From: a virus
Taxonomy: Duplodnaviria; Heunggongvirae; Uroviricota; Caudoviricetes
Virus record (IMG/VR): IMGVR_UViG_2579778535_000016
Location: 1-14,511 of that record
Reading direction: 5' to 3' (one strand)
DNA: 14,511 nt
Of the stretch, positions 1 to 1,158 are shown piece after piece. Numbering within the stretch: the stretch's first letter is position 1; each line of letters begins with the position of its first letter. The translations under genes were made by a program, and so were the position numbers. The notes under the pieces are model-generated. The model was not told the DNA's origin and made no database searches. It saw nothing but the letters and a program-made list of their open reading frames with translations.

Positions 1-1158
1 ATGCTCACCGTTAAGCAGATTGAAGCAGCAAAGCCGAAAGAAAAACCATACCGCCTTCTCGATGGTAATGGCCTGTACCTTTATGTTCCTGTATCAGGGA
101 AAAAGGTATGGCAGCTTCGCTACAAGATTGACGGTAAAGAGAAAATCCTGACCGTCGGAAAATATCCGCTTATGACTTTGCAGGAAGCAAGGGATAAGGC
201 ATGGACTGCGAGGAAAGACATCTCGGTTGGCATCGATCCGGTAAAGGCGAAAAAGGCTTCGTCTAACAACAATTCCTTTAGTGCGATTTACAAGGAATGG
301 TACGAGCACAAGAAGCAAGTATGGTCAGTAGGGTATGCGACTGAACTTGCAAAAATGTTTGATGACGACATTTTACCTATCATCGGCGGCCTTGAAATTC
401 AGGATATTGAGCCGATGCAACTGCTGGAAGTAATCCGCAGATTTGAAGATCGCGGTGCAATGGAGCGAGCAAATAAAGCCCGCAGAAGATGCGGCGAGGT
501 TTTCCGTTACGCTATTGTCACTGGTAGGGCTAAATATAACCCGGCACCTGACCTTGCTGACGCCATGAAGGGATACCGCAAGAAAAACTTCCCGTTTCTT
601 CCTGCAGACCAGATCCCGGCATTTAACAAAGCACTGGCAACATTTTCAGGAAGCATCGTATCGCTCATTGCCACCAAGGTTTTACGCTATACAGCTCTAA
701 GAACGAAAGAGCTTCGTTCCATGCAATGGAAGAACGTCGATTTTGAAAACAGGATTATCACCATCGACGCCAGTGTGATGAAGGGACGCAAAATTCATGT
801 GGTCCCGATGTCAGACCAGGTGGTTGAACTTCTCACTACGCTAAGCTCAATCACCAAACCAGTCTCAGAGTTTGTTTTTGCCGGGCGCAACGATAAGAAG
901 AAGCCAATCTGCGAGAACGCGGTATTGCTTGTGATCAAACAAATCGGCTATGAGGGTCTGGAAAGCGGTCACGGATTCAGGCATGAATTCAGCACGATTA
1001 TGAACGAGCACGAATGGCCTGCTGACGCTATTGAAGTGCAACTGGCACATGCCAACGGCGGATCTGTGCGTGGTATTTACAACCATGCTCAGTATCTCGA
1101 TAAGCGCAGAGAAATGATGCAATGGTGGGCGGACTGGATTGATGAAAAGGTGGAGTAA
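1..1158 (+). CDS. int: Phage tyrosine integrase (P4-type, IntS-like), 385 aa
   Basis: Full-length ORF starting with ATG at base 1. N-terminus (AAKPKEKPYRLLDGNGLYLYV...WQLRY) is typical of the P4-family integrase arm-binding domain; C-terminal region carries a catalytic-domain-like HxxR...Y signature (HGFRHEF...GIYNHAQY). Upstream context is outside the window. Confidence 0.9.
   Translation: MLTVKQIEAAKPKEKPYRLLDGNGLYLYVPVSGKKVWQLRYKIDGKEKILTVGKYPLMTLQEARDKAWTARKDISVGIDPVKAKKASSNNNSFSAIYKEWYEHKKQVWSVGYATELAKMFDDDILPIIGGLEIQDIEPMQLLEVIRRFEDRGAMERANKARRRCGEVFRYAIVTGRAKYNPAPDLADAMKGYRKKNFPFLPADQIPAFNKALATFSGSIVSLIATKVLRYTALRTKELRSMQWKNVDFENRIITIDASVMKGRKIHVVPMSDQVVELLTTLSSITKPVSEFVFAGRNDKKKPICENAVLLVIKQIGYEGLESGHGFRHEFSTIMNEHEWPADAIEVQLAHANGGSVRGIYNHAQYLDKRREMMQWWADWIDEKVE

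What the first reader, a model, noticed from the sequence alone, without database searches (positions are those of the whole stretch)
1..1158. Integrase starts at the first base of the window: the attachment site and likely tRNA target lie just outside
P4-type integrases of this kind are typically adjacent to a tRNA gene whose 3' end forms attL, and are transcribed away from it. The window therefore probably begins just inside the left prophage boundary, which would make the integrase-acetylase-tailspike cluster the left arm of the element.
Basis: inference. Interest (0 to 1): 0.2.

Follow-up and report, generated by a model that had tools for sequence, protein, structure and literature searches.

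The report
Prophage integrase next to argW tRNA
The window opens on the integrase gene of a decayed E. coli prophage sitting in the tRNA-Arg (argW) gene, which ends 161 bases before the window starts; this arrangement is ordinary and already well studied.

Summary
Bases 1-1158 encode an intact 385-aa tyrosine integrase. It matches phage CUS-3 Int at 383/385 residues, HK620 Int at 380/385, and P4 Int at 35% identity. The window is identical to the last 14.5 kb of an E. coli draft contig (AYQQ01000026.1). On that contig tRNA-Arg(CCU) argW lies on the same strand and ends 161 nt before the ATG. Its last 15 nt plus a T form the 16-nt core CTGCAGGGGACACCAT, the published KplE1/HK620/Sf6 core. The 161-nt spacer is almost identical to the experimentally mapped K-12 attL/PintS region, so the integrase promoter lies outside the window. 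No second core copy occurs in the window, which stops one base short of the contig end, so this strain's attR could not be reached. A 99.9%-identical relative has the core as a direct repeat 10 kb downstream, next to dsdC. The empty yfdC-argW-dsdC site is contiguous in 911 of 5426 complete E. coli genomes. Integrase, acyltransferase and tailspike are the left arm. The prophage is defective, with two structural-gene deletions and two broken immunity-region genes.

The parts
1..1158 (+). Complete intS-type (P4-like) tyrosine integrase gene, 385 aa. Candidate active-site motifs: R234 (LRT), H324-x-x-R327 (GHGFRH), Y360 (IYNH).
   Evidence: ORF. Pfam Arm-DNA-bind_3, Phage_int_M and Phage_integrase. 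383/385 aa identical to CUS-3 Int and 380/385 to HK620 Int. 35% identity, E=1e-77, to P4 Int. Motif positions; assigning them as catalytic residues is inference from the P4 alignment.
371..377 (+). TTTTACC motif inside int. It resembles the arm-type repeats upstream of the ATG and coincides with a repeat that the HK620 record labels 'attP'. Low confidence.
   Evidence: Motif positions -22, -7 and +371. The HK620 repeat_region at L001 3369-3379 corresponds to window 369-379. No binding test was done.
1232..1621 (-). humD-like gene (UmuD'-type S24 peptidase, 129 aa), the first gene after int in the left arm.
   Evidence: NCBIfam HumD equivalog NF051876, 216 bits, aligned 1-129 of 129. Pfam Peptidase_S24.
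1747..3921 (.). Decayed immunity-region (immI-like) block. It holds a 242-aa-type gene with a premature stop at 2029, a frameshifted antirepressor (2564-3270), a small Arc-like gene (3266-3436, - strand) and an Arc/Mnt-like gene (3514-3921, + strand).
   Evidence: Pfam P22_AR_C and Arc. tblastn of the intact homologues from L003 and L012 shows the frame change and the truncated ORF (ORFs).
4022..5035 (+). Acyl_transf_3 acyltransferase, 337 aa: the 'acetylase' of the left arm.
   Evidence: Pfam PF01757, E=6.7e-25. No NCBIfam name. Any role in O-antigen modification is inferred from its position, as for oac in Sf6 and neuO in CUS-3.
5049..7283 (-). Tailspike gene, 744 aa, with a Tail_spike_N domain and a GDSL/SGNH esterase-like domain. 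It is the last gene of the late operon and is transcribed towards int.
   Evidence: Pfam PF18668 and PF00657/PF13472. The N-terminal 164 aa are 52% identical to the GDSL-type tail protein of the L022 prophage.

Best explanation
The window starts at the first codon of the integrase gene of a prophage integrated into the 3' end of the E. coli tRNA-Arg(CCU) gene argW.

The left junction (attL) lies just outside the window. argW occupies -236 to -162 relative to the ATG. The 16-nt crossover core CTGCAGGGGACACCAT occupies -176 to -161. The remaining 160 nt are the phage P' arm, which carries the IntS arm-type sites and the integrase's own promoter. The transcription starts mapped in K-12 fall at -31/-30.

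The inferred mechanism is that of KplE1, HK620 and Sf6. IntS recombined attP with the argW 3' end and rebuilt an intact tRNA. In the prophage, int is transcribed away from attL from a promoter inside attL that IntS (and TorI) repress. The excisionase (a TorI homologue) sits at the other end of the prophage, next to attR and dsdC.

Shown here: gene identity, the tRNA, the core, the conserved P' arm sequence, the chromosomal flank, and attR in relatives.

Inferred: promoter use, autoregulation, and the presence of attR and torI in this particular strain.

The prophage is defective. Two deletions have fused tail and head genes, so at most it could excise; it could not make particles.
For: - The window is identical to the source contig, which gives 8.8 kb of upstream flank.
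- That flank is E. coli chromosome (fadL, yfdF, mlaA, yfdC): 99.3% identical to K-12 and 97.9% to ET826.
- tRNA-Arg(CCT) lies 161 nt upstream on the same strand. The same spacing is found in all 15 other loci scanned that carry the identical or a nearly identical integrase.
- The core equals the published KplE1 core (PMC2951348), the annotated HK620 attP core, and the Kapi1/Sf6/HK620 att site (PMC8787464).
- In the alignment, HK620 attP matches the source on the int side of the core and diverges on the tRNA side. The last 66 nt before the ATG are identical to K-12.
- Relative L007 is 99.9% identical over window 1-7731. It has the core twice in direct orientation, 9,997 nt apart, and the second copy is preceded by HK620-like P-arm sequence and followed by dsdC.
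- The reconstructed empty site is contiguous, at up to 100% identity, in 911 of 5426 complete E. coli genomes.
- ET826 shows the full layout: argW, intS, tailspike ... torI, attR, dsdC.
Against: - attR and a torI-like gene of this very strain were not seen. The contig ends one base after the window, and no complete E. coli genome carries this element.
- No experiment was done on this sequence. Promoter and binding-site function are carried over from K-12 on sequence identity alone.
- The simple promoter scan picked hexamers (ATGACG/AATAAT) that do not fit the published start sites.
- The prophage has decayed, so the integrase may no longer serve any excision.
Confidence: 0.93

Rival explanations
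1. The window comes from a free (circular or permuted) phage genome deposited with int first. What lies 'outside' would then be attP and the xis/early-left genes, as in the HK620 record, not a bacterial tRNA.
For: Several phage records start or end at this int gene (HK620, VT2phi_272, vB_EcoP-683R2). In HK620, attP and hkaB/hkaC lie upstream of int.
Against: The whole window is 100% identical to a chromosomal contig in which yfdC, mlaA, yfdF and fadL precede argW and int. Left of the core the sequence is the full tRNA, not the HK620 P arm.
Confidence: 0.01
2. The left boundary is as described, but the element is an orphaned remnant. Its right end (attR and/or torI) has been lost or displaced by deletion, an IS element or a tandem second element, so the integrase has no partner site and the 'far-side repeat' does not exist in this strain.
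For: The prophage is visibly decaying, with two internal deletion fusions and two broken genes. Relative L007 lost everything between a tail gene and 45 nt before attR through an IS1. ET826 has a 1-nt deletion in its attR core. The argW-dsdC region is cited as highly variable (reference list of PMC8787464).
Against: Even the heavily deleted L007 and the 10-kb KplE1 keep attR. Nothing seen here points to loss.
Confidence: 0.15
3. The true start of the integrase is the in-frame GTG 36 nt upstream, so the gene begins outside the window and the ATG at base 1 is internal.
For: A GTG lies 12 codons upstream, and the first in-frame stop is at -42.
Against: The published transcription starts (2464536/7, with the ATG at 2464567 as derived from the paper's -223/+64 clone coordinates) fall at -31/-30, downstream of that GTG. 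All annotated homologues use the ATG. The Pfam arm domain model aligns from residue 2.
Confidence: 0.03

Closest known systems
KplE1 (CPS-53) recombination module of E. coli K-12: argW-attL-intS ... torI-attR (Panis et al., PMC2951348; PMC3509656)
   Same: Same target tRNA and the same 16-nt core. The spacing from argW to int is the same 161 nt. The P' arm and PintS sequence is nearly identical, with 4 differences over the spacer and none in the last 66 nt. Int has the same orientation, transcribed away from attL.
   Different: The cargo differs. KplE1 carries gtr-type glucosylation genes (yfdGHI) after intS. This element carries humD, an immI remnant, an acyltransferase and an esterase-type tailspike. 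The right end of this element was not seen.
P22-like argW phages HK620, Sf6, CUS-3 and Kapi1 (genus Lederbergvirus)
   Same: The integrase is 95-97% identical at the nucleotide level, and 383/385 aa match CUS-3 Int. attP lies between int and xis, so the two genes end up at opposite ends of the prophage (PMC8787464; HK620 annotation). The left-arm order of int, O-antigen- or capsule-modifying acyltransferase, then tailspike is the same as in CUS-3.
   Different: The morphogenesis genes here are not P22-like. They are siphovirus-type: tail tube, DUF6246, tape measure and a TipJ-like protein, related to Enterobacter phage ENT1 and CobraSix and to the E. coli 20A24 prophage. They also carry deletions.
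Satellite phage P4 int-attP
   Same: A homologous integrase (35% identity, E=1e-77). The geometry is the same: the core lies about 150-170 nt upstream of int, arm repeats lie between the core and int, and one repeat lies inside int. It targets a tRNA 3' end and int reads away from it.
   Different: A different tRNA target (leuX for P4, from general knowledge) and a different core sequence. P4 Int is 439 aa against 385 aa here. The element type is unrelated.

Membership tests
IntS/KplE1-HK620-Sf6 argW recombination module | Tyrosine integrase with an arm-binding N-terminal domain, nearly identical to IntS-type integrases | tested here: met
   Pfam domains. 95-97% nucleotide identity to HK620, Sf6, CUS-3 and Kapi1 int. 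383/385 and 380/385 aa identical to CUS-3 and HK620 Int.
IntS/KplE1-HK620-Sf6 argW recombination module | tRNA-Arg(CCU) argW directly upstream of int, on the same strand (tRNA first, then integrase) | tested here: met
   On the source contig: L017 tRNA at 11783-11857(-) and int at 10464-11621(-), 161 nt apart.
IntS/KplE1-HK620-Sf6 argW recombination module | 16-nt core CTGCAGGGGACACCAT at the tRNA 3' end | tested here: met
   Present once in the flank of the source contig. Identical to the published core and to the HK620 annotation.
IntS/KplE1-HK620-Sf6 argW recombination module | Integrase promoter and IntS/TorI binding sites inside attL, between the core and the ATG | tested here: inconclusive
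   The sequence is nearly identical to the characterised K-12 region (PMC2951348). Binding and transcription were not tested, and the consensus scan chose other hexamers.
IntS/KplE1-HK620-Sf6 argW recombination module | Second core copy (attR) in direct orientation at the far end, next to a torI-type excisionase gene and dsdC | not testable with these tools
   The source contig ends one base after the window. Met in relatives: L007, K-12, and ET826 with a 1-nt deletion in the core.
P4-type integrases | Full-length homology to P4 Int, including the arm-type N-terminal domain | tested here: met
   BLASTP: 35% identity over 402 aligned positions, E=1e-77. Arm-DNA-bind_3 domain.
P4-type integrases | att core upstream of the int start, so that int is transcribed away from the tRNA | tested here: met
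   The P4 core lies 152-171 nt upstream of int. Here it lies 161-176 nt upstream.
Lambda-type arrangement (xis-int operon reading towards att) | The int 3' end faces the att site, with xis immediately upstream of int in the prophage | tested here: not met
   The int 5' end faces attL. Upstream lie the tRNA and yfdC, not xis. In relatives, torI sits at the opposite end.

The most novel reading that the evidence does not exclude
This is a decaying hybrid prophage. It joins an IntS/immI left arm of P22-like origin to siphovirus structural genes. It has kept an intact integrase, a humD-like gene, an O-antigen-type acyltransferase and an esterase-domain tailspike while losing its head and tail genes. 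It might persist as a still-excisable, KplE1-like surface-modification island rather than as plain debris.
Probability: 0.15. Interest if true: 0.25.

Novelty: already known. Interest (0 to 1): 0.07.

Why it matters
It matters little beyond correct annotation. It fixes the left boundary of this prophage at the argW 3' end, 161-176 nt before the window. It shows that the integrase promoter and arm sites lie outside the window. It also tells an annotator where to look for the right end: a torI-like gene and a second CTGCAGGGGACACCAT next to dsdC. The argW/IntS module is one of the best-studied tRNA-targeting recombination systems in E. coli, and nothing here departs from it.

Tried and rejected
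- I searched the window for a second copy of the core at up to 2 mismatches and found none. This is expected, because the window ends in the lysis genes.
- I looked for a complete E. coli genome or phage record carrying the whole element, so that its attR could be read. No record covers 80% or more of either half of the window.
- I looked up the lineage-specific 200-aa fusion protein, hoping for a longer contig of the same element. Only the source contig carries it.
- The sigma-70 consensus scan of the upstream region gave one hit (ATGACG / 16 nt / AATAAT). Its -10 box lies downstream of the published transcription starts, so I did not use it.
- The terminator scan found nothing convincing directly after int.
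Arm-type motifs were located with a script instead.
- I ran no further search on walking through TorI to the right end, because that look-up cannot be aimed at the source assembly.

Full report
**1. The observation**

An ORF begins with the ATG at base 1 and ends with the stop at 1156-1158 on the + strand, giving 385 aa. It carries the three domains of an arm-binding tyrosine integrase: Arm-DNA-bind_3 over residues 2-86, Phage_int_M over 93-188 and Phage_integrase over 199-365, with E-values from 2e-25 to 2e-39. Its length equals that of the annotated int genes of HK620, CUS-3, ET826 and K-12 intS. The window holds no tRNA gene. Because the window starts exactly at the ATG, the promoter and att site cannot be inside it.

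**2. Where the window comes from**

A look-up of the exact integrase protein returned many E. coli contigs. A look-up of the neighbouring 129-aa protein returned locus L017, which is 100% identical to window 1-11621. A look-up of a lineage-specific 200-aa fusion protein returned a single contig, AYQQ01000026.1 of assembly GCA_000503395.1, 53,713 nt long. The reverse complement of that locus (L019) contains the whole window without a mismatch, with 2,661 nt before it and exactly one base after it.

The window is thus the last 14.5 kb of a draft contig. The upstream flank (8.8 kb in L017) encodes fadL, yfdF, mlaA and yfdC. It is 99.3% identical to K-12 and 97.9% to E. coli ET826.

**3. What lies just outside**

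ARAGORN finds tRNA-Arg (anticodon CCT) on the same strand as int in L017, and in the 15 other loci scanned that carry this integrase or a nearly identical one, always with the same spacing. On the source contig the tRNA ends 161 nt before the ATG.

The last 15 nt of the tRNA plus the next T read CTGCAGGGGACACCAT. This is the 16-nt duplicated core reported for the KplE1 (CPS-53) prophage of K-12 (PMC2951348). It is also the 'attP core' annotated in phage HK620, and the att site that Kapi1 shares with Sf6, HK620 and KplE1 (PMC8787464).

In an alignment of the source flank with K-12, ET826, L007, CUS-3 attL and HK620 attP, all sequences agree from the core to the ATG. HK620 attP diverges from the chromosomal sequences exactly to the left of the core, which places the crossover there. 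The 161-nt spacer differs from K-12 at four positions, and the last 66 nt are identical.

In K-12 this stretch is the P' arm of attL and contains the intS promoter. Transcription starts were mapped at 2464536/7. The cloned region 2464344-2464630 is stated to span -223 to +64, which puts the ATG at 2464567 and the starts at -31/-30 (the arithmetic is mine). So int mRNA would start about 30 nt before the window.

**4. The far side**

The core has no copy in the window, even with two mismatches. None is expected, because the window ends in the lysozyme gene of the late region. The attR of this strain could not be reached.

Relatives give the answer for the lineage:
- **L007** is 99.9% identical to window 1-7731. 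It has the core at 9825 and again, in direct orientation, at 19822. The second copy is preceded by sequence matching the left arm of HK620 attP and followed by the dsdC flank, and an IS1 abuts it.
- **The empty site.** Joining the sequence left of attL to that right of attR gives a 603-nt 'empty site'. It is contiguous in 911 of 5426 complete E. coli genomes, at 100% identity in the best hits, where it is annotated yfdC, tRNA-Arg and dsdC.
- **E. coli ET826** shows the intact layout: yfdC, argW, intS, tailspike, immI, injection genes, head genes, terminase, lysis, Q/nin, replication, cI/cro, early left, torI, attR, dsdC. Its attR core lacks one G of the G-run.
- **K-12** has the same ends around a 10.2-kb remnant.

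**5. How it works**

The arrangement is the one described as a 'new paradigm' for KplE1. attP lies between xis (torI) and int, so integration separates the two genes. [quoted passage not shown] The identical core makes integration rebuild the tRNA 3' end.

Shown here are the parts and their order. Binding, autoregulation and excision are inferred from near-identity to the tested K-12 and HK620 sequences.

The label 'P4-type' is justified. P4 Int aligns over its full length at 35% identity, E=1e-77. P4 has the same geometry: its core lies 152-171 nt upstream of int, with arm repeats between them and one inside int. The window also has a TTTTACC motif at 371-377, at the spot where the HK620 record marks an 'attP' repeat.

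**6. The left arm and the state of the element**

After int come the following features:
- a full-length HumD-type UmuD' homologue at 1232-1621, - strand
- a 242-aa-type gene cut by a stop at 2029, and an antirepressor split by a frameshift near 2971-2980
- Arc-like and Mnt-like genes
- an Acyl_transf_3 acyltransferase at 4022-5035
- a 744-aa tailspike with a GDSL/SGNH esterase-like domain at 5049-7283, - strand

Beyond the tailspike the genes are of siphovirus type and bear two deletions:
- The 200-aa ORF at 7340-7942 joins tape-measure residues 1-71 to residues 703-833 of a TipJ-like protein.
- The 206-aa ORF at 9529-10149 joins a portal N-terminus to tail-terminator sequence, with the junction at 9667/9668.

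Intact versions exist in L014, L016 and L022. The prophage is therefore defective. Its integrase is nonetheless intact and two residues away from that of the active phage CUS-3.

**7. Verdict**

The one part left open is this strain's own attR. The system is a textbook member of the argW/IntS family, so its novelty is nil and its interest is low.

Noticed in passing
window 1232-1621 (- strand): A full-length HumD-family (UmuD'-like) gene sits directly after int, with no Y-family polymerase partner in the window. In the related E. coli 20A24 prophage (L022 2987-3358 and 1719-2987), an S24 peptidase gene is paired with a Y-family polymerase gene.
   Followed up: partly
window 4022-5035 (+) and 5049-7283 (-): An Acyl_transf_3 acyltransferase lies tail-to-tail with a tailspike that carries a GDSL/SGNH esterase-like domain. 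If both act on O-antigen acetyl groups, the prophage would encode both the writer and the eraser of its own receptor mark. The same pairing occurs in L022 (3711-4796 and 4833-7415).
   Followed up: partly
window 7340-7942 (- strand): A 200-aa ORF is a deletion fusion of tape-measure residues 1-71 with the last 131 residues of an 833-aa TipJ-like protein. About 6 kb of tail genes present in L014, L016 and L022 are missing. The protein is found on only one contig in the look-up collection.
   Followed up: yes
window 9529-10149 (- strand), junction at 9667/9668: A 206-aa ORF appears to fuse a portal N-terminus (about 140 aa) to tail-terminator sequence. This implies deletion of the whole head-gene block between the terminase and the tail tube.
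   Followed up: partly
window 1747-2523 and 2564-3270 (- strand): Two immunity-region genes are broken. A 242-aa-type gene has a premature stop at 2029. The antirepressor (Bro-N/P22_AR_C type) changes reading frame near 2971-2980.
   Followed up: yes
window 14130-14511 (the end of the window is the contig end minus 1 base): The window stops inside a phage lysozyme gene, one base before the end of the draft contig. The Rha/lysis block at 12483-14511 matches many phages and usually two or more places per E. coli genome, so the assembly probably broke on this repeat.
   Followed up: partly
L007 19020-19790: In the closest relative an IS1 sits 45 nt from attR and abuts a truncated tail gene. This leaves a 10-kb remnant (int to tailspike) between intact attL and attR cores.
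   Followed up: yes
L020 7500-7515 (E. coli ET826 attR): The attR core of an otherwise complete P22-like argW prophage reads CTGCAGGGACACCAT, with one G missing from the G-run. This could be a real mutation that hampers excision, or a homopolymer sequencing error.
   Followed up: no
36 nt upstream of window base 1 (L019 14548-14546, - strand): An in-frame GTG lies 12 codons before the annotated ATG, inside the P' arm. It lies upstream of the published transcription starts, so it is unlikely to be used.
   Followed up: yes
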